A DNA stretch of 32,000 nt from Acaryochloris marina MBIC11017 (GTDB taxonomy: Bacteria; Cyanobacteriota; Cyanobacteriia; Thermosynechococcales; Thermosynechococcaceae). Location of the stretch: contig NC_009927.1 of the NCBI RefSeq assembly GCF_000018105.1, forward strand, positions 90,001 through 122,000, read 5' to 3'. Positions 2,192-32,000 of the stretch are shown here, piece by piece. The notes beneath the pieces were generated by a model. It had not been told where the DNA came from and searched no databases. It worked only from the letters and a program-made list of their open reading frames with translations. How positions within the stretch are numbered: the stretch's first letter is position 1; every line of letters starts with the position of its first letter. The position numbers and the translations under genes were made by a program.

Positions 2192-2698
2192 TTAATCAAA
2201 CAACCGAGAATGGGGAGAATTACTGGGAATACCTGGTTCTTTGTCGAGATCAAAATTAATCACTTGCCAGCGGGGATCTTGCTCGGGATCAGGGCCAAAT
2301 TCTATGGGTAGACCATATAAACTGGGGTGTCCAGATAGGGTTTTATCAGACCAGGGGGAATGCTCTAGAAAAGTGTTAATCAACGTACGATAGCGCCGGG
2401 CGATGATGACCTTGGTCGCCCGATATCCTTCGTTATAGAGCCGATCCAACGCTTCATGAATTTCGAAACGAATGCCATCTGGATGGGTATGTTGGCGATA
2501 CCATTGCCCTTCCCATAATCGCCAATGGCGTCCAGATTGTAAGTGCACTAAATCTTCAGTATTGGGATCGGCTTCAAATGCACCGTGACGTTGGCAAAGA
2601 TAGGTATCCGTTAAGGTCAAAGCTGACATCATTTGTCGGCAATGGGGGCAGGGCGTCTCAGGCCCAAAAATCGGATAGTGCATGCTGACATGTGTCAT
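2192..2698 (-). CDS. Conserved hypothetical protein with an N-terminal CxxC...CxxH zinc-ribbon-like motif
   Basis: 168-aa ORF with PCPHCRQ...YLCQRHG near the N-terminus. Same strand as the Zur-like gene and 190 bp downstream of it. I did not recognise a family with confidence. Confidence 0.55.
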   Translation of the reverse strand: MTHVSMHYPIFGPETPCPHCRQMMSALTLTDTYLCQRHGAFEADPNTEDLVHLQSGRHWRLWEGQWYRQHTHPDGIRFEIHEALDRLYNEGYRATKVIIARRYRTLINTFLEHSPWSDKTLSGHPSLYGLPIEFGPDPEQDPRWQVINFDLDKEPGIPSNSPHSRLFD

Positions 2699-2888
2699 GA
2701 AGTCAGGGAGAGCCGAAGAACGTGGGTTGCCGCAAAGGTGGCATCATAATAACCTTCAAAGAGCTGGCGTTTTTGATCAATAATCAGGTCAAATTTATCT
2801 TGAAAAATAGAGTGTTCTTGCTTCAGAAATAATTAAATACCTGCTGTTATGAAGCCAAAGAGATTTAGGCTTGCCTAATCCCCTTTTT

Positions 2889-3290
2889 TCAGGCTGAAAC
2901 CTCAACTTCAATGCAATTCTGACACAGACCAAATACTTCTAGAGTGTGGTAAAAAACTTGAAATTCCTGTGTTTGCGCTAGTTCCTGCTCTAACTTGTGG
3001 ACTGGACAGTTCATTAAGGGCATGGAAGTGCCACAGTTGACACAGGTGAGGTGATGTCGATGGACTGAGGCAAGACTATAAACCGCTTCTCCATTTGGTA
3101 AAGAACGCATTTGAACTTTTCCACACTTCTGAAGGACCTTAAGGGCACGGTAAACCGTTGCCAATCCCACTCTTTGTTGCTGCTTACCAAATTCTTGATG
3201 CAGATCTTGGGCAGAGAATTCTTGAGGAGTGGAAAAGAGGACTTCCAACACGCGCCGCTGATGGGGAGTTAGTTTCTCTGGCATACTCAC
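2889..3290 (-). CDS. zur: Fur-family regulator, Zur (cyanobacterial FurB type)
   Basis: 133 aa. GLATVYRALKVL HTH, HRHHLTCVNCGTSMP, CPVH and FYHTLEVFGLCQNC match my recollection of Anabaena FurB/Zur. An AT-rich Fur-type palindrome sits about 60 nt upstream. Confidence 0.8.
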   Translation of the reverse strand: MSMPEKLTPHQRRVLEVLFSTPQEFSAQDLHQEFGKQQQRVGLATVYRALKVLQKCGKVQMRSLPNGEAVYSLASVHRHHLTCVNCGTSMPLMNCPVHKLEQELAQTQEFQVFYHTLEVFGLCQNCIEVEVSA

Positions 3291-3346
3291 CTTCTTATTA
3301 CGTCTTGAACGAGAACAGTGTGATTGCAGATCTCAAGAGTTATCAG

Positions 3347-3364
3347 AATGATTATCATTATCAT
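3347..3364. promoter_or_regulatory. Zur-box-like motif AATGATTATCATTATCAT upstream of zur
   Basis: Exact 18-mer shared with 4747..4764 and 29571..29588. The core AATGAT-T-ATCATT is a 6-1-6 palindrome. It lies 57-74 nt upstream of the zur ATG (3290). Confidence 0.7.
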
Positions 3365-3592
3365 TTCATAATAGCGGCTCTACTCGAGAAACCGTCAATA
3401 TTTCGCTCCAACCCTCACTTCTGGGAAGTCTCGTCAGTTAATGCTGTATCAAACATCTCGTAAGCGAGGCAACCCGTTGAGCTTTGCCCGTAATCTCTTT
3501 ACCGATTACGACGATAGAGTGCTGGGCTGGTGGGGTATGCAGGGGCATGGCGGACGTTGAGCAATCTAGAATCTTTTCAGTAGATACAGGAT

Positions 3593-4714
3593 TTAGCAGA
3601 TACAGTCGTTGTCGCAACAAGACAGGTCATCGAGAAACATGCCTTGCTGGCGGTAGATTTCTAGAGGTGCAGGGTCAAGGTCTAACCGACGTGCGATCGC
3701 ATCAGCCACTACCGCAAACCGCTGGCGAAATTTATAGATAAAGCAAAAAATAACATCGTGATGACGGACTGAGGGGCCAACCACAAATAGACCTGGCGTC
3801 AGCGTAGACTCATCTTGATCATTCAACATGGCATAACCCTCCGACCAATCGAACAGCGATGCAATCTGTTGCAAGCTGGTCTCAAAACCAGTACAGAGAA
3901 TCGGGGGATGAGCCGTCAGCCATTTATGGTATTCGCTGAAGACAGCATAGCCCTCTGACACTTTTTTGACTTCCTCAATGGAGACATTGCCAATCAGTTC
4001 GAGACGGCCCGTTTGAACGGCTAGCTTTACGCGCTGCACTGTATAGGGAGACAACGCAATACTCGGATCAGTATCCGGGTTGTCCCAAGCCCCAGTCCGA
4101 TCTAAAACCCTGACGCTCTTCCCTAAGGCGACTAGGTTGGTCGCGGCATCCATACCACTTTCATAGCCGCCGATGATCGTAAATTCATCCCCTGGTAAAT
4201 TTTTCCAAGAGCGAATCTGAGAATTGTGAATACAATGGTCTGCTCCCACAAATGGATTTAACCTTGGGTATTGGAATTCTCCAGCAGCCCAGATCACAAA
4301 CTGGGTTTTGATGTCTCCACCAGACGTCTTGAGGATAAAGCCACGACACTGAGAAAGGGGTTCAATATCCAAAACGTCTGTTTCTGTCTTCACAGGCAAC
4401 TGGAAGTGATTGGCCACCGTTTGCAAGTAGAGGGCATACTGCTGGCCATTGATATGTTCTCGGCGAAAGGCGACCGCTGGCGATGTTTTCAGGGTAATGG
4501 CATTGAGATCAAGTAGGCCAAAACCATGACTCGGAAACGAGGGGGTGATTAAGTTCATCTCTGCTGGCCAGCGACTAAAGGAGGCTCCGACCTGCTGCCG
4601 TTCCAACAGGATAAAGTTTTTCAGGCCCAGATCTTGAAGCGCGACCGCACAACCTACCCCGGCTGGCCCTGCCCCGACTATCACCACGTCATAGGAAGAA
4701 GTTGTCTCTTTCAT
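3593..4714 (-). CDS. FAD-dependent oxidoreductase (flavin monooxygenase / Pyr_redox-like) with a Cys-rich C-terminal tail
   Basis: I place the start at MKETTSSYDVVIVGAGPAGVG (ATG complement 4712..4714). The ORF-track start at 4798 would translate the Zur box. A second dinucleotide fold is FTIIGGYESGMDAA. The C-terminus is DDLSCCDNDCIC. Confidence 0.8.
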   Translation of the reverse strand: MKETTSSYDVVIVGAGPAGVGCAVALQDLGLKNFILLERQQVGASFSRWPAEMNLITPSFPSHGFGLLDLNAITLKTSPAVAFRREHINGQQYALYLQTVANHFQLPVKTETDVLDIEPLSQCRGFILKTSGGDIKTQFVIWAAGEFQYPRLNPFVGADHCIHNSQIRSWKNLPGDEFTIIGGYESGMDAATNLVALGKSVRVLDRTGAWDNPDTDPSIALSPYTVQRVKLAVQTGRLELIGNVSIEEVKKVSEGYAVFSEYHKWLTAHPPILCTGFETSLQQIASLFDWSEGYAMLNDQDESTLTPGLFVVGPSVRHHDVIFCFIYKFRQRFAVVADAIARRLDLDPAPLEIYRQQGMFLDDLSCCDNDCIC

Positions 4715-8743: not shown

Positions 8744-10771
8744 ATGGGGAATGACTTATCCAAGCGAGATTTGCTCGTTAGAAACAACTTTTCTCCTTCA
8801 AACGAAAAACTTATTAAGAGTGGTTATGTAGATCAAACACGCTTGCGTGAGGCGATTTATGAGAGTCGGCGGAAAGGTCGCTCTCTGTTGGCGATTCTCC
8901 AAAAAATGACGGGGAAGCCCCTCCCACCTCGGTTGCTTCGGCAGATCAAGCGTCAGCAACTCTTTGAGTTAAAAATCCTCTATGGCCTAGAGTGTCTGGA
9001 TCCTGAGCTTACTCAAGTTGACTTCGATGAAATTGATCGGCTGATTCGCACCGTTATTCCCCTCGACTACTGCCGTCGCTATCAGTTGTTACCACTTTCA
9101 CTCAATGAAGAAGAGGATCCGCCAGTTGTTCGGATCGGTATGGTCAATCCCGATCACCTCAGCGCCATTGATGATATTGGCTACTTATTGCGCTCCAATG
9201 GCATGACCTTCCAACGGGTCGTCCTGGATTTGGATACTTACCAAATGTTGATCGCCAAGTTTTTGGACGCTCAAGCCAAACGCCAAGCCACGATCCAAGA
9301 GAATTTGCCCGTTGAGTATGGGCTGGAAGATGATCTCGATCGCTTAGGCGGCATTGAAGATCTGGCCACCAATGATGCCGACACCAACTTAGATGAAGCA
9401 CTGCTAGACGAAAATGCAGCACCCATCATTTCTTTGGTCAATAAGATTTTAGCGAAGGCCTTGCAGAACCAGATTTCAGATATTCATATTGAACCGCAAG
9501 AAGAAAACCTGCGAGTTCGCTTTCGGAAAGACGGCCTCCTCCATAACGCCTTCCAACCTCTTCCACGGCGAATTACGCCTGCCCTGGTCTCTCGATTTAA
9601 AATCATTGCCAATTTAGATATTGCGGAACGGCGTCTGCCCCAGGATGGACGTATTCTTCGACTGTTTCAAGGACGTAAAGTTGACTTTCGTGTCAGCACC
9701 TTGCCGAGTCGCTATGGCGAGAAAGTGGTGTTGCGGATCTTAGACAACTCTTCCATGCAGCTGGGTCTCGACAATTTGATTGATGACCCAATGAGCCTGG
9801 AGTTGGTGAGGTCCATGGTCGATCGTCCTTTTGGTCTAATTTTAGTCACGGGTCCAACGGGTTCTGGTAAAACGACCACTTTGTATTCGGCTTTGACGGA
9901 ACGGAATACCCCCGAAGTTAATATCTGTACCGTTGAAGATCCGATTGAATATACGTTGCCAGGGATTACCCAGGTGCAGGTGCTGCGAGAAAAAGGCATG
10001 GACTTTGCCTCGATCCTGCGAGCCTTTCTGCGGCAAGACCCTGATGTCCTACTCGTGGGTGAGACACGGGACAAGGAAACCGCCAAAACTGCTATTGAAG
10101 CCGCGCTCACGGGGCACTTGGTGTTAACCACTTTGCACACGAATGATGCGGCTAGTGCCATTGTCCGCTTGGCTGAGATGGACGTAGAACCCTTTATGGT
10201 CTCCGCCTCCTTGCTAGGAGTCGTCGCTCAGCGACTGGTGCGACGTCTCTGTCCCGATTGCCGTATTCCCTATCGACCGTCCCAGGAGAGACTGGCGCAG
10301 TTTGGATTAGTGACGTCTGGGAAGACTGACATTACTTTCTATAAAGCCAATACATCTACCTCTGATGATATTCTGGCGACGGCTAACACTGAAGATGCCT
10401 GTCCCACCTGTTCAGGCATTGGCTACTTGGGGCGGTGCGGGGTCTATGAGGTGATGCAGGTGAGCGAAAAACTCAAGGCACTCATCACGGAAGGAGCCCC
10501 AACCGAGCACATTAAAGAAGTGGCCGTCGAAGAAGGAATGCAAACCCTATTGGCCTATAGCTTAAAGCTGGTTGAGAATGGTGAAACCTCTCTAGAGGAA
10601 GTTGAACGGGTCACTTTCTCAGATAGCGGCTTGAAAACAGAATTAAAGGCCAAACGCAAGACAGCCCTCAACTGCCACGTCTGTAATGCCGCGCTGTTAC
10701 CAGAGTGGTTGGATTGTCCCTACTGCCTCACCCCCCGATTTACTGAGCAGCATCCTGTGAATCAGCATTAA
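8744..10771 (+). CDS. pilB: Type IV pilus assembly ATPase PilB (GspE family)
   Basis: 675 aa. Walker A GPTGSGKTT, Asp box, Walker B LLVGETRD, His box TGHLVLTTLHTN, tetracysteine CPDC...CPTC, and T2SSE_N-like N-terminal region. Confidence 0.9.
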   Translation: MGNDLSKRDLLVRNNFSPSNEKLIKSGYVDQTRLREAIYESRRKGRSLLAILQKMTGKPLPPRLLRQIKRQQLFELKILYGLECLDPELTQVDFDEIDRLIRTVIPLDYCRRYQLLPLSLNEEEDPPVVRIGMVNPDHLSAIDDIGYLLRSNGMTFQRVVLDLDTYQMLIAKFLDAQAKRQATIQENLPVEYGLEDDLDRLGGIEDLATNDADTNLDEALLDENAAPIISLVNKILAKALQNQISDIHIEPQEENLRVRFRKDGLLHNAFQPLPRRITPALVSRFKIIANLDIAERRLPQDGRILRLFQGRKVDFRVSTLPSRYGEKVVLRILDNSSMQLGLDNLIDDPMSLELVRSMVDRPFGLILVTGPTGSGKTTTLYSALTERNTPEVNICTVEDPIEYTLPGITQVQVLREKGMDFASILRAFLRQDPDVLLVGETRDKETAKTAIEAALTGHLVLTTLHTNDAASAIVRLAEMDVEPFMVSASLLGVVAQRLVRRLCPDCRIPYRPSQERLAQFGLVTSGKTDITFYKANTSTSDDILATANTEDACPTCSGIGYLGRCGVYEVMQVSEKLKALITEGAPTEHIKEVAVEEGMQTLLAYSLKLVENGETSLEEVERVTFSDSGLKTELKAKRKTALNCHVCNAALLPEWLDCPYCLTPRFTEQHPVNQH

Positions 10772-26680: not shown

Positions 26681-26880
26681 CGAGTTTTTTCCCAGAAGTT
26701 GAAGATGTACGCTCGCAGGCTAAATCTACGGCGGAGCAGACGGATGGGAGAACTTGGTGGGGGGCCAAGATGATCTGCTGCTGCTTACCTTCACCATTAT
26801 CGGTGTTTTCATCACGTCGTTCAACACCTTCAAATAAGAAGCAATGAGTTGATGCCGCATCGACACCAAGCCAAGAATTG

Positions 26881-26911
26881 GCTGAAACAGCCAATTCTTG
26901 GTCACGAGAAG
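26881..26911. other. Perfect 14-bp stem / 3-nt loop hairpin
   Basis: CCAAGAATTGGCTG-aaa-CAGCCAATTCTTGG, about 200 nt downstream of the thrS stop, with no U-tract. It shares the CCAAGAA...TTCTTGG ends with the hairpin at 21212. Confidence 0.55.
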
Positions 26912-27168
26912 TATGACTTGCCCAATTGCCCAGCGTTTAAGTGGACAGACTCCCTACTAAACACTTTTCCCTTCAAAAAGAAAGTTCACTTGAATTTAAT
27001 TTTGGGAAGGCTAAAGGTAGGACAGCAGTTCTGTACCTTTTTCCGAATGAAATCCTAGTCAAATTAAATAGCTTTTTCTATTAATCTCACAGCTTAAATC
27101 AGGTTCTTCCCTTTTCAATAAAACTGGAAGATTAAAAGGTTCCCACGATTCCCAATCAGGAGCTGCAT

Positions 27169-28101
27169 GTGCCTCAGCCCAAGGACCAACTCCCCAAAAT
27201 TCGGATTGGTGAGCTTCTTCTCCAGAAGGGATATCTTAATCCGACACAACTGAGACAAGCCTTAAACCTCCAACGTGGGAGTAAGCAGAAACTGGGAGAA
27301 GTTTTAATTCAGCAAGGTCTGATTAGTCAGGATCAACTCCAGCAAGGCCTAATCGAGCAACGATGGCGAAACTTGGTCACGTCAGTATTATTCTCGGTTA
27401 GTACGTTTGCGCCCAATCTACCGCAACTAACCTCTAGCGTAGAGACGCAAACAACCCTGGTGCAGAGCATGCGTAAACCTACCATAGAACTCATTGTTGA
27501 TGACGACATTAAAAGGGTTCACGCCAAGAAAGGGTATGGAGGAATTTCTACCCAGTCAGGACCTTCTAATACCAGAACGTTGTTTGCTTCTGCCACTCCT
27601 CTCCCTCAAAAGCCGACTGTAGATGATCCCTTGAGAGGTTTTTGTCATCCATTGAATGGTGAGGGGTGGTTAAGCCAGGGAATTCGGGGCAGAACCCACC
27701 AAGGTCGGATGGAGTATGCCTATGATCTAGCAATAAAGATTGGCACTCCCATCTATGCCATGAGGGCTGGTAAAGTGCTCGCACTAAGGGATAAATACCC
27801 TGATACGGGCGGTGGGAAAGAAAATGCAACTCGCTCTAATTTCATTTGGCTTGAGCATGAAGATGGATATCGGTCTATCTATGTCCACCTGCAGCAAGGC
27901 TTTAAGTCAAAAGTGAATCTCAAAGCCGGAGATTTTGTCGAAAAAGGTCAACTCATTGGTTACAGTGGGAACTCCGGTTGGAGTACCGGCCCTCACTTAC
28001 ATATTGAAGTGCAGAAACCGAGTCCTAGAAAACGGTTTACGAACTCAGTCCCTTTCGCTATTTCAGGTACCTGTAAAGATACCCCAATCGCTGACCAATA
28101 G
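27169..28101 (+). CDS. M23 (LytM-type) metallopeptidase with an N-terminal MshEN-like tandem motif
   Basis: GTG start as given in the ORF track. The N-terminus reads RIGELLLQKGYLNPTQLRQALNLQ-RGSKQ-KLGEVLIQQGLISQDQLQQGLIEQ. The C-terminus has THQGRMEYAYDLAIKIGTPIYAMRAGKV and GNSGWSTGPHLHIEV, the H...D and HxH M23 motifs. Confidence 0.8.
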   Translation: MPQPKDQLPKIRIGELLLQKGYLNPTQLRQALNLQRGSKQKLGEVLIQQGLISQDQLQQGLIEQRWRNLVTSVLFSVSTFAPNLPQLTSSVETQTTLVQSMRKPTIELIVDDDIKRVHAKKGYGGISTQSGPSNTRTLFASATPLPQKPTVDDPLRGFCHPLNGEGWLSQGIRGRTHQGRMEYAYDLAIKIGTPIYAMRAGKVLALRDKYPDTGGGKENATRSNFIWLEHEDGYRSIYVHLQQGFKSKVNLKAGDFVEKGQLIGYSGNSGWSTGPHLHIEVQKPSPRKRFTNSVPFAISGTCKDTPIADQ

Positions 28102-28191
28102 CTTAAATTACCTCTGTCTCTGCCGGAGGCTTATTATGGTTCACCCCTCAAGGGGGCAGGGGAATAACCCCCAAGGGGCAACTCTCTAACA

Positions 28192-30446: not shown

Positions 30447-30920
30447 ATGCCCTCACTCAATTCCTTCGTTCCCTTTACAAAGATTTGTCGAGCGATTGCC
30501 CCGGTCGCTGCTCTATGCTCAGTATTTGGGACGGTATTGGGCCAAGCAGCCCCCAGTCACGCTGTCACGCCGAGGTCACTCTTGACACCGTCGTTAATTC
30601 AGTCAATACCAATCACCACCTCTGTTGCAGAAGCCGTAAACCGGGTGCGTGGGGTTGAGCCCAAATTCTGTTGCCATATGCTGGCGTTAGCTATTGACGA
30701 GATCCTTGAGGATCCCCGTTTTGAAACAGCCCAGTGGGGCATTGTTGTTGAATCCATTACTGGGCCAACGGTTCTCTACCAACACAATTGAGATCGCGCC
30801 CTGATTCCGGCTTCGAATACCAAGCTGCTGACAACAATTGCTGCCATTAATGTCGTCAGCAATCGGGTTCCTGAAATGCCACTTTTCCAATTGCACTCAA
30901 CGTCTGAACGGTTTTGTTAA
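30447..30920 (+). pseudogene. D-Ala-D-Ala carboxypeptidase/endopeptidase (PBP4/DacB-like) remnant with an in-frame stop and a 3' truncation
   Basis: A signal-like N-terminus is followed by AQWGIVVESITGPTVLYQHN, then TGA (30789..30791), then in frame DRALIPASNTKLLTTIAA, which is the SxxK active-site box. The frame ends at 30920, leaving about 157 codons against the 450 or more expected. Confidence 0.6.
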
Positions 30921-31006
30921 ACCTTATTCGCCAAAAACTGATACTCCGGTGTTTACAGCTTTACTCTGGCTCCAGAAAGAGAAACTCCCCGTTTCGGCGG
31001 AGGCTG

Positions 31007-32000
31007 GTGGGCCTAATTTGTACTATCAGCCTGGCTACATTGCTTTTTACCCTTGGTGGGTTGCATACTTTAGCTCAAAATTCATCAGACTTGAACGACT
31101 TACAAGAGCGCCGGATACAAGTTGATGAACAGCGATCCAATGTTAGAAAGCAACGACAGCAGATTGAGAATCTGGAAGGTGCAGCCAAAAGACGTTTAGG
31201 GGGATTAGAGCGGAATATTCAGTTTACGGAAGGTCAAATTATGGAAAATGAAGTCAAACTCAAACAAGCCAACCAAACACTGCAGAAAATAGAAGCGGAT
31301 TTGACCGTAGCTGAAACCGCCTACAAAGAGAAACAGAGTAATACCGTTGCTCGCCTTCGGGTTCTGCAACGACAACGAGAATCCAGTACTTGGATTGTAT
31401 TATTACAGAGCCAATCGATAGAGGAACTGTTAGAGCGTCGATATCGGCTTCAACAGGTCTATAAAGCTGATCGCAAGTCGCTACTAGCACTCAAGACTGA
31501 AAAAGAAGAGATTAGTGACAAGAAACTCTTAGCAGAAATTCAGAAAAACCAGATTGCCCTTTTATCAGAACAACTCCAGTATCAAAAAGCGAATTACACA
31601 GCTCAAGCGTCTGTTCAAGCTGAATTGGTGACACGGCTAAAAACAGATCGACGCGCTTTAGAAGCTGCTGAGCAGCAATTATCTCAAGAAGCTAATAATC
31701 TTTCTAGCATCATTGCCCAACGCCTAGGCGAACAACAAGTGGCCTTCCGCTCTGGCACTCCCGGATATCAGCGTATATTGGGGACAGGACAACTGGTTAG
31801 ACCCGTAGTTGGACCCGTTACCAGTAATTTTGGCTATCGAATTCATCCCGTATTAGGAGGAAGACGGTTTCATGCTGGTACTGATTTTGGTGCTCCTACA
31901 GGTGCCCCGATTTTTGCGGCAGATAGCGGCACCGTAATTGTGGCTGAATGGTACGGTGGCTATGGCAATACGGTCATCGTTGACCATGGTAACGGCTTAA
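31007..32000 (+). CDS. Coiled-coil M23 peptidase (EnvC/NlpD-like); 3' end lies outside the window
   Basis: The frame is open from 30908 to the window end and is absent from the ORF track. It has a hydrophobic N-terminal segment GLICTISLATLLFTLGGL, a coiled coil of about 220 aa, then FGYRIHPVLGGRRFHAGTDFGAPTGAPIFAADSGTV...TVIVDHGNGL. The start is uncertain (GTG 31007 or TTG 30914). Confidence 0.8.
   Translation, partial: MGLICTISLATLLFTLGGLHTLAQNSSDLNDLQERRIQVDEQRSNVRKQRQQIENLEGAAKRRLGGLERNIQFTEGQIMENEVKLKQANQTLQKIEADLTVAETAYKEKQSNTVARLRVLQRQRESSTWIVLLQSQSIEELLERRYRLQQVYKADRKSLLALKTEKEEISDKKLLAEIQKNQIALLSEQLQYQKANYTAQASVQAELVTRLKTDRRALEAAEQQLSQEANNLSSIIAQRLGEQQVAFRSGTPGYQRILGTGQLVRPVVGPVTSNFGYRIHPVLGGRRFHAGTDFGAPTGAPIFAADSGTVIVAEWYGGYGNTVIVDHGNGL

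What the first reader, a model, noticed from the sequence alone, without database searches (positions are those of the whole stretch)
27169..28101. M23 peptidoglycan peptidase fused to a textbook MshEN-type c-di-GMP-binding tandem motif
Residues 11-63 read RIGELLLQKGYLNPTQLRQALNLQ - RGSKQ - KLGEVLIQQGLISQDQLQQGLIEQ.

As I recall it, the published MshEN consensus is two 24-residue motifs, RLGxx[LVI][LVI]xxG[LVI][LVI]xxxxLxxxLxxQ, separated by a 5-residue spacer. The match here is nearly position by position, with only I for L, K for R and one Y as deviations.

A weakly hydrophobic segment follows (LVTSVLFSVSTFAP), then an M23 domain with intact H...D and HxH motifs. If the hydrophobic segment spans the membrane, a cytoplasmic c-di-GMP sensor is coupled to a periplasmic cell-wall hydrolase. 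I do not know this output for c-di-GMP signalling to have been characterised.

The pilB gene in the same window has only a degenerate version of the motif.
Basis: partly seen in the sequence, partly recalled or inferred. Interest (0 to 1): 0.62.

Follow-up and report, generated by a model that had tools for sequence, protein, structure and literature searches.

The report
c-di-GMP sensor fused to wall peptidase
This Acaryochloris plasmid gene really does join a textbook c-di-GMP-binding module to a zinc (M23) cell-wall peptidase through a weakly hydrophobic segment, but the 2016 paper that defined the module already lists this fusion, and nobody has tested what the signal does to the enzyme.

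Summary
ORF 27169-28101 (+) encodes a 310-aa protein with these parts:
- Residues 12-64 match NCBIfam NF053729 (MshE-related c-di-GMP motif) at 55.8 bits against a cut-off of 38. They differ from the published consensus at exactly three positions.
- Residues 65-87 are a conserved but weakly hydrophobic segment.
- A linker of about 60 residues is predicted to be disordered.
- The M23 domain has all metal and catalytic residues invariant in its family.

Indirect evidence favours a cytoplasmic sensor and an exported peptidase:
- Sister proteins with the same M23 subtype carry ordinary membrane anchors or signal peptides.
- Distant family members carry a wall-binding SH3b domain.
- Two cysteines are kept or lost together.

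This copy's own hydrophobic segment falls below classical transmembrane thresholds. No topology predictor was available.

The fusion is not new as an architecture. Wang et al. 2016 (Supplementary Table 4) list "MshEN_N - Peptidase_M23" with A. marina AM1_1153, and the N-terminus printed for AM1_1153 matches a chromosomal paralogue in this genome. This scan had already reached the same verdict on other copies.

The window gene is the fourth, plasmid-borne paralogue. It lies in a zinc-starvation island, but I found no Zur box upstream and its neighbours are not conserved. The family is confined to one cyanobacterial family. Its function is untested.

The parts
27158..27162 (+). Shine-Dalgarno-like AGGAG, 6 nt upstream of the GTG start
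   Evidence: Read directly from the sequence.
27169..28101 (+). Whole gene: MshEN_N, hydrophobic segment, linker and M23 peptidase. 310 aa, GTG start, stop codon included.
   Evidence: Full-length homologues reach 84% identity.
27202..27360 (+). MshEN_N c-di-GMP-binding module, residues 12-64: two 24-residue motifs with a 5-residue spacer
   Evidence: NF053729 scores 55.8 bits against a cut-off of 38, and the genome search reports the same coordinates. The region matches the T. thermophilus PilF c-di-GMP domain (6f8l) at E 4e-13 and V. cholerae MshE (5htl) at E 3e-7. AlphaFold2 predicts helices 13-19, 25-36, 42-48 and 54-80 with pLDDT about 90. Key positions are conserved in 75 relatives.
27361..27429 (+). 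Basic flank RWRN (65-68) plus the weakly hydrophobic segment LVTSVLFSVSTFAPNLPQL (69-87). It is a candidate signal anchor or signal-peptide-like element.
   Evidence: KD19 is 1.12 here, the family median is 1.48, and 41 of 121 members reach 1.6 or more. The pattern [RK]xRN followed by about 18 uncharged residues is conserved. AlphaFold2 models it as a continuation of helix 4.
27430..27618 (+). Linker predicted to be disordered, rich in Ala, Ser and Pro (about residues 88-150)
   Evidence: pLDDT is below 35 over residues 78-142. In the family the linker is 43-96 residues long, with A 12%, S 11.6% and P 10.5%. Relatives P0124 and P0130 carry an SH3b domain here.
27619..28086 (+). M23 (LytM-type) metallopeptidase domain, about residues 151-306, with H177, D186, H240, H276 and H278, plus the paired C159 and C302
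   Evidence: Pfam PF01551 scores 77.4 bits. Foldseek gives probability 1.0 to ShyA, DipM-LytM, Csd1/2 and lysostaphin. The five His/Asp residues and both Cys are invariant in 75 of 75 relatives. HDHHH is kept across the wider subtype.
28111..28129 (+). Weak terminator-like hairpin 10 nt after the stop codon
   Evidence: Consensus scan only: 4 sites found in the region against 1.9 expected. It is not evidence of function.

Best explanation
The gene encodes a small envelope protein.

The N-terminal 64 residues form a four-helix MshEN_N module that stays in the cytoplasm and binds one c-di-GMP. The fourth helix runs directly into a marginally hydrophobic segment, preceded by RWRN, that takes the chain across the inner membrane. 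A flexible leash of about 60 residues then carries a catalytically competent, zinc-dependent M23 peptidoglycan endopeptidase into the periplasm.

A disordered leash cannot transmit a conformational change. The second messenger therefore most likely controls where, when or how much of the tethered hydrolase is available. The routes would be c-di-GMP-dependent docking or oligomerisation of the cytoplasmic module, or control of the protein's stability. Allosteric switching of the active site is less likely.

Shown here:
- Both domains are present and their key residues are conserved.
- The fold is predicted with good confidence.
- The family is narrowly distributed and has expanded into paralogues.
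- The genome has abundant c-di-GMP turnover genes.

Inferred:
- c-di-GMP binding.
- Membrane passage and orientation.
- Peptidoglycan as the substrate.
- The mode of control.
For: c-di-GMP module:
- NF053729 scores above its cut-off in this protein and matches (E <= 0.001) in all 75 aligned relatives.
- G14, L32, Q35, G43 and L61 are invariant, and Q64 is kept in 74 of 75.
- Wang et al. measured a KD of 0.35 uM for the isolated 62-residue MshEN_N. They also report that a construct with R-to-K at the first residue of motif 2 still binds, at 2.6 uM.
- The genome has 55 GGDEF matches.

Exported M23 domain:
- Paralogue L005 (65% identical over the M23 part) has a canonical TM helix, LWMTSGLGLILVLLAIF. 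Paralogue L006 has a signal- or lipoprotein-like N-terminus.
- P0123, sister to the window's clade in the M23 tree (SH-aLRT 86), has an ordinary N-terminal anchor and no MshEN.
- Distant full-length members P0124 and P0130 carry a bacterial SH3 wall-binding domain between the segment and M23, above Pfam cut-offs.
- C159 and C302 are kept or lost together: both in 22 representatives, neither in 123, one only in 12. This fits a disulfide.
- The basic residues lie on the N-terminal side of the segment.

Active enzyme:
- H177, D186, H240, H276 and H278 are invariant.
- The predicted structure matches the LytM fold.
Against: - In this copy the hydrophobic segment is the weakest in the family. KD19 is 1.12, and a crude sum on the Hessa scale is +5.3, against -2.0 for the L005 TM helix.
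- No topology or signal-peptide predictor was available.
- The first zinc ligand is spaced H-x8-D rather than the canonical H-x3-D. phmmer aligns lysostaphin's ligand His to E182, but E182 is not conserved (E in 64, A in 11), which is why H177 is taken as the ligand.
- I or V replaces the first Leu of the motif throughout the family, and binding has not been measured for that variant.
- The Cys co-occurrence may reflect only a few evolutionary events.
- No conserved operon partner points to a docking target for this copy.
Confidence: 0.55

Rival explanations
1. The hydrophobic segment is the core of a cleavable, internal signal peptide, and the MshEN_N module is an unusually long cytoplasmic n-region. 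Signal peptidase releases a soluble periplasmic M23 enzyme. c-di-GMP acts only before cleavage, by gating targeting, export or stability of the precursor.
For: - The segment has signal-peptide proportions: a basic n-region, a median of about 17-18 uncharged residues, then helix-breaking prolines.
- Its hydrophobicity matches that of the signal-like N-terminus of paralogue L006 rather than a TM helix.
- An [AV]xA motif lies 15-32 residues after the MshEN motif in 76 of 124 members, against 25% of random windows from the same proteins. Distant members read LAAAQ, VALAQ, VAVAQ and VANAQ.
Against: - The window copy and its closest relatives lack the [AV]xA motif.
- 39% of the family lacks it too.
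- Small-residue triplets are common in Ala/Ser-rich linkers.
- No real signal-peptidase predictor was run.
Confidence: 0.15
2. The whole protein is cytoplasmic. The weakly hydrophobic helix serves for dimerisation or lies amphipathically on the membrane surface. The M23 domain acts on a cytoplasmic peptide, or on no substrate at all.
For: - KD19 of 1.12 is below TM thresholds.
- AlphaFold2 models residues 54-80 as one continuous helix with the MshEN bundle.
- Ser and Thr alternate with hydrophobic residues in the segment.
Against: - The same M23 subtype is exported in paralogues and in the sister protein.
- Some family members carry SH3b inserts.
- The cysteine pair co-varies.
- To my knowledge, every characterised M23 enzyme acts outside the cytoplasm.
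Confidence: 0.12
3. This plasmid copy is a zinc-starvation back-up endopeptidase, comparable to Zur-regulated ShyB of V. cholerae. It would be expressed with the surrounding Zur island, which includes thrS, cysS and folE paralogues and cobW. This reading does not exclude the best explanation.
For: - The gene lies between a thrS paralogue and a folE gene with a Zur-type palindrome.
- M23 endopeptidases under Zur control are known (PMC7705223).
Against: - There is no Zur-box core with up to 2 mismatches in the 490 bp upstream of the gene.
- Orthologues at 70-77% identity sit in quite different neighbourhoods: after a hybrid histidine kinase and an EAL fragment, or after a phytochrome and response-regulator cluster.
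- The region is rich in insertion sequences.
Confidence: 0.1
4. The MshEN_N module no longer binds c-di-GMP and serves only as a protein-interaction or folding module.
For: - Wang et al. show that some MshEN-like domains, such as XpsE and ABF44566_III, have lost binding.
- Reviews note that binding by cyanobacterial MshEN domains is untested.
- I or V replaces the first Leu, and K replaces the second Arg.
Against: - Every residue class that Wang et al. found critical is kept: Gly at the third motif position, the turn Gly, the LxxxLxxQ leucines and both Gln. They are invariant or nearly so in 75 relatives.
- None of the loss-of-binding changes listed for XpsE or ABF44566_III is present.
Confidence: 0.08

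Closest known systems
'MshEN_N - Peptidase_M23' architecture, example A. marina NlpD AM1_1153 (ABW26190), in Wang et al. 2016, Nat Commun 7:12481, Supplementary Table 4
   Same: The domain order is identical, as are the motif, the RxRN-plus-hydrophobic segment and the M23 subtype. The AM1_1153 N-terminus printed in that paper matches chromosomal paralogue L004 of this genome.
   Different: The window gene is a different, plasmid-borne paralogue, 55% identical to L004. It is not among the 15 A. marina entries in Wang's Supplementary Table 3. The paper gives only a table row, with no topology, binding or function data for this architecture.
MshE / PilB / PilF N-terminal MshEN domains (PDB 5htl, 6f8l, 8pfa)
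   Same: The 53-residue tandem motif is the same, and the sequence matches are significant. A four-helix arrangement is predicted.
   Different: There is no MshEN_C subdomain and no secretion ATPase. The output is an extracytoplasmic hydrolase, not a cytoplasmic motor.
NfrB, a c-di-GMP-activated glycosyltransferase with an MshEN domain (Junkermeier and Hengge 2021, PMC8669469)
   Same: An MshEN module sits on an inner-membrane envelope-biogenesis enzyme. The NfrB models NF008411 and NF012033 match residues 10-65.
   Different: In NfrB the sensor and the catalytic domain are both cytoplasmic, so direct allostery is possible. Here they would lie on opposite sides of the membrane.
RgsM, a membrane-anchored M23 peptidase, with the c-di-GMP phosphodiesterase RgsP in Sinorhizobium meliloti (PMC6107284)
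   Same: RgsM has an N-terminal cytoplasmic stub, one TM helix and a periplasmic M23 domain. It is physically linked to a c-di-GMP signalling protein.
   Different: The link there is a protein-protein contact with a separate GGDEF-EAL protein. RgsM itself has no c-di-GMP-binding module.
LapD-LapG inside-out signalling (from my own knowledge; not tested here)
   Same: Cytoplasmic c-di-GMP binding controls a periplasmic proteolytic event.
   Different: LapD uses a degenerate EAL domain, a HAMP relay and a folded periplasmic domain that sequesters a separate protease. Nothing comparable is present here.
EagA / MepM / ShyB, M23 endopeptidases under Zur and (for EagA) c-di-GMP transcriptional control (PMC7705223)
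   Same: An M23 wall endopeptidase is linked to both zinc supply and c-di-GMP, and this gene sits in a Zur island.
   Different: Control there is transcriptional, and those proteins carry LysM domains and no MshEN. No Zur box was found upstream of this gene.

Membership tests
MshEN_N c-di-GMP-binding domain | Two 24-residue motifs RLGxx[LVI][LVI]xxG[LVI][LVI]xxxxLxxxLxxQ separated by 5 residues | tested here: met
   Residues 12-35, 36-40 and 41-64, with three conservative deviations: I13, Y22 and K41.
MshEN_N c-di-GMP-binding domain | Curated profile match above its cut-off | tested here: met
   NF053729 scores 55.8 bits against 38, covering profile positions 1-53 of 53. All 75 relatives match it at E <= 0.001.
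MshEN_N c-di-GMP-binding domain | Four-helix arrangement with Gly turns between helices 1-2 and 3-4 | tested here: met
   AlphaFold2 predicts helices 13-19, 25-36, 42-48 and 54-80 with pLDDT about 90, and G21 and G50 lie in the turns. This is a prediction only.
MshEN_N c-di-GMP-binding domain | Measured binding of c-di-GMP | not testable with these tools
   Needs ITC, DRaCALA or MST on residues 1-66.
Peptidase family M23 (LytM-type) | Profile match above its cut-off and the LytM fold | tested here: met
   PF01551 scores 77.4 bits against 28.7. Foldseek gives probability 1.0 to ShyA, DipM, Csd1/2, lysostaphin and LytM.
Peptidase family M23 (LytM-type) | Zinc ligands His/Asp/His and two catalytic His (HxxxD, H, HxH) | tested here: met
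   D186, H240, H276 and H278 align to lysostaphin's residues. The first ligand is taken to be invariant H177, giving H-x8-D rather than H-x3-D. All five are kept in 75 of 75 relatives.
Peptidase family M23 (LytM-type) | Peptidoglycan cross-link hydrolysis | not testable with these tools
   Needs a muropeptide assay.
Bitopic (N-in, C-out) membrane-anchored M23 peptidases, RgsM type | A transmembrane helix of classical hydrophobicity between the cytoplasmic stub and the M23 domain | tested here: inconclusive
   The window copy has KD19 of 1.12. The family median is 1.48, and 41 of 121 members reach 1.6 or more. Comparative evidence favours export.
Zur-regulated back-up M23 endopeptidases (ShyB type) | A Zur operator in the gene's promoter region | tested here: not met
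   There is no match to the local Zur-box core with up to 2 mismatches in 26681-27168, although exact matches occur at four other places in the window.

The most novel reading that the evidence does not exclude
The MshEN_N module is a ligand-binding n-region of a signal sequence. c-di-GMP would then decide whether the precursor is exported and cleaved, making secretion of a wall hydrolase directly second-messenger-gated at the targeting step. I know of no described signal peptide that works this way.
Probability: 0.1. Interest if true: 0.75.

Novelty: new member of a known kind. Interest (0 to 1): 0.35.

Why it matters
Cyanobacteria encode many c-di-GMP cyclases; this genome has 55 GGDEF matches. 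Few receptors are known, and reviews state that no cyanobacterial MshEN domain has been tested for binding.

A receptor wired directly to a peptidoglycan hydrolase would link the sessile/motile or aggregation signal to local cell-wall remodelling. One example would be opening the wall for surface-protein or polysaccharide export. That fits the conserved position of a chromosomal paralogue just upstream of cyanoexosortase A.

The mechanistic question is how a cytoplasmic ligand controls an enzyme on the far side of the membrane through a floppy tether. The protein is only 310 residues, so this can be tested cheaply.

The value here is a sharper hypothesis and a list of comparative clues. It is not a new discovery, because the architecture has been catalogued since 2016.

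Tried and rejected
- Zur control of this gene. I searched the window for the local Zur-box core. It occurs exactly at four other promoters but not upstream of this gene. Neighbourhoods of orthologues differ. I rejected this as the main explanation.
- A conserved operon partner for the window copy. An all-against-all comparison of flanking ORFs across 17 loci found none. It only showed links between the chromosomal L002-type paralogue and cyanoexosortase A (5 loci) and a 189-aa ORF of unknown function (6 loci).
- E182 as a zinc ligand, as the phmmer alignment to lysostaphin suggests. Rejected because the position is Ala in 11 of 75 relatives and Lys in paralogue L006.
- A relic MshEN motif in paralogue L005. 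There is only a weak match, 5.7 bits over 17 residues. It is suggestive and nothing more.
- A twin-arginine export motif. The conserved pattern is [RK]xRN, not RR, so I did not pursue it.
- RNA-seq evidence of expression and of the start site.
- The Cys159-Cys302 distance in the model. Model coordinates are not exposed to scripts, so only co-occurrence could be counted.
- Pfam DUF4388. The match at residues 39-102 scores 23.1 bits, below the cut-off of 25, so I ignored it.

Full report
**What is there**

The ORF at 27169-28101 (+) is open on the plus strand only. It begins at GTG, with AGGAG six bases upstream, and gives 310 residues. A weak terminator-like hairpin follows the stop codon, but such sites are no more frequent in this region than chance allows.

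**The c-di-GMP module**

It departs from the strict consensus at three positions: I13, Y22 and K41.

- NCBIfam NF053729 matches it end to end, with 55.8 bits against a cut-off of 38 and E 2.8e-15.
- It also matches solved MshEN domains by sequence: PilF 6f8l at E 4e-13 and MshE 5htl at E 3e-7.
- AlphaFold2, run on an alignment of 75 relatives, predicts four helices with pLDDT about 90.
- Across those 75 relatives, G14, L32, Q35, G43 and L61 are invariant. Q64 is kept in 74 and R12 in 64. Lys at position 41 is the family norm, in 66 of 75.
- All 75 match NF053729 at E <= 0.001.

Wang et al. report two relevant measurements. The isolated 62-residue MshEN_N binds c-di-GMP with a KD of 0.35 uM. 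A construct carrying R-to-K at the same motif-2 position still binds at 2.6 uM. Binding is therefore likely, but it has not been measured. The genome carries 55 GGDEF matches, so the ligand is plausibly present.

**The peptidase**

- Pfam Peptidase_M23 matches residues 181-283, with 77.4 bits.
- The model matches ShyA, the DipM LytM domain, Csd1/2, lysostaphin and LytM with Foldseek probability 1.0.
- D186, H240, H276 and H278 align with lysostaphin's Asp ligand, catalytic His and HxH.
- phmmer places lysostaphin's first ligand His on E182. E182 is Ala in 11 of 75 relatives and Lys in a paralogue, whereas H177 is invariant. H177 is also kept throughout the wider subtype.
- I therefore read the metal site as H177-x8-D186 plus H278. 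That assignment is an inference.

This does not look like a degenerate, activator-type LytM domain.

**Topology: the weak point**

The segment after the sensor, RWRN-LVTSVLFSVSTFAPNLPQL, reaches only 1.12 on a 19-residue Kyte-Doolittle window. It is the least hydrophobic in its family, where the median is 1.48 and 41 of 121 members reach 1.6 or more. On a crude sum of Hessa-scale values it scores +5.3, against -2.0 for a real TM helix in a paralogue.

The element itself is conserved: [RK]xRN, then a median of 18 uncharged residues, then prolines. The model continues helix 4 through it, then loses confidence over residues 78-142. No topology predictor was available, so I relied on comparative evidence:

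1. The genome holds two further proteins with the same M23 subtype, 57-65% identical. One has a canonical TM helix and the other a signal- or lipoprotein-like N-terminus.
2. In a tree of the M23 domain, P0123 is sister to the window's clade (SH-aLRT 86). P0123 has an ordinary N-terminal anchor and no MshEN. Forms with and without MshEN are interleaved in a weakly resolved tree. Some short 'other' rows may be truncated gene calls.
3. Two distant full-length clusters carry a bacterial SH3 wall-binding domain between the segment and M23, above Pfam cut-offs.
4. C159 and C302 are invariant in the family and are kept or lost together across representatives: both in 22, neither in 123, one only in 12. 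This fits a disulfide, although the underlying events may be few.

Together these make an extracytoplasmic M23 domain the best reading, at roughly three in four.

**A variant worth keeping**

The segment has the proportions and hydrophobicity of a signal peptide. An [AV]xA motif follows it in 76 of 124 members, against 25% of random windows. Distant members read LAAAQ, VALAQ, VAVAQ and VANAQ. The window copy lacks it. If cleavage occurs in part of the family, c-di-GMP could act only on the precursor.

**Mechanism**

About 60 residues predicted to be disordered separate the membrane segment from the enzyme, so classical transmembrane allostery is unlikely. More likely, c-di-GMP controls docking, oligomerisation or turnover of the cytoplasmic module. 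That would set the position or abundance of a tethered hydrolase. This whole paragraph is inference.

**Distribution and context**

The window is contig 3 (positions 90001-122000) of an 8.36-Mb, 10-contig genome. The best hits carry Acaryochloris names. Two further matches point the same way:
- The N-terminus of paralogue L004 matches the printed AM1_1153 sequence.
- The N-terminus of the window's PilB-like protein matches the AM1_B0148 row.

The genome has four full-length MshEN-M23 paralogues. Full-length homologues were found as follows:
- In most genomes searched in the same genus. All 7 had a match at E <= 1e-30, but the listed match for G406 covers only the M23 part.
- Matches at E <= 1e-30 occur in 20 of 35 genomes of the same family, though in some (for example G408 and G412) only the M23 part matches.
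- In 0 of 25 genomes from other families of the class.
- In none of 400 genomes sampled across the phylum.

In a library clustered at 50% identity, only about five clusters are full length.

The window gene sits in a zinc-starvation island. There is no Zur-box core in its 490-bp upstream region. Orthologues at 70-77% identity lie after a hybrid kinase and EAL fragment, or after a phytochrome and response-regulator cluster. I therefore treat the zinc context as probably incidental.

The chromosomal L002-type paralogue lies just upstream of cyanoexosortase A (TIGR03763, 219 bits) in five loci from two genera.

**What is already known**

Supplementary Table 4 of Wang et al. 2016 lists 'MshEN_N - Peptidase_M23' with A. 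marina NlpD AM1_1153, found in Acaryochloris and Crinalium. No main text in the searchable library combines MshEN with M23. The only MshEN-with-endopeptidase hits are irrelevant. Searches on c-di-GMP with M23 returned only two kinds of link: indirect links (EagA) and links through a separate protein (RgsP and RgsM). The architecture is therefore catalogued but uncharacterised.

Earlier follow-ups in this scan reached the same verdict on orthologues in other genomes and on a paralogue in another part of this genome. I reached it independently from the paper's supplement.

**Verdict**

This is a new paralogue of a known, untested architecture, and interest is moderate to low.

Noticed in passing
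L002 (G000:C1:4166452-4170333), ORF 2498-3880+: The closest chromosomal MshEN-M23 paralogue lies about 100 bp upstream of, and on the same strand as, a cyanoexosortase A gene (TIGR03763, 219 bits against a cut-off of 150). That gene is fused to the 'cyanoexosortase A system-associated' domain (TIGR04153). The pairing recurs in 5 loci from 2 genera.
   Followed up: partly
L005 (G000:C1:549227-552712), ORFs 1441-2355- and 2762-3409-: A paralogue with a strong TM helix and the same M23 subtype keeps a possible relic half-motif, KNIWIGERLVQQGM (5.7 bits). It sits directly downstream of a GGDEF (GGEEF) diguanylate cyclase gene on the same strand.
   Followed up: partly
P0124 and P0130 (metagenome representatives): Distant family members have the order MshEN_N, hydrophobic segment, bacterial SH3 domain, M23. 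They show clear AxA-Q motifs after the hydrophobic segment.
   Followed up: partly
P0030 (A. thomasi, 397 aa): The query matches this relative in three stretches, and weak repeat-type Pfam matches lie near residues 38-63 and 103-138. This is consistent with two MshEN_N modules ahead of the M23 domain.
   Followed up: no
L022 1-7785 and L019/L020 upstream of the orthologue: Orthologues at 70-77% identity lie immediately downstream of dense signalling clusters. One has a phytochrome-type PAS_2-GAF-PHY histidine kinase plus four single-domain response regulators. The others have a hybrid kinase with an Hpt domain and, in L020, an EAL fragment.
   Followed up: no
window 26881-26911: A perfect hairpin, ccaagaattggctg-aaa-cagccaattcttgg, lies in the gap between thrS and this gene. 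It has no U-tract.
   Followed up: no
window 30914-31999 (runs off the end): A second M23 protein has a long coiled-coil N-terminal part and weak EnvC, ShyC and Pgp3-type matches. It lies 2.8 kb downstream, so the window holds two different M23 architectures.
   Followed up: no
window 8744-10771: The N-terminus of the PilB/GspE-like ATPase matches the AM1_B0148 row in Wang et al.'s Supplementary Table 3. This suggests the window comes from a plasmid like pREB2 of A. marina. Its MshEN region is degenerate, with no NF053729 match.
   Followed up: partly
L002 583-1152 (-): A 189-aa ORF of unknown function with a hydrophobic N-terminal stretch (signal-peptide-like by eye; no family match) lies divergent from the chromosomal MshEN-M23 paralogue. 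It is conserved in 6 loci from 3 genera.
   Followed up: no
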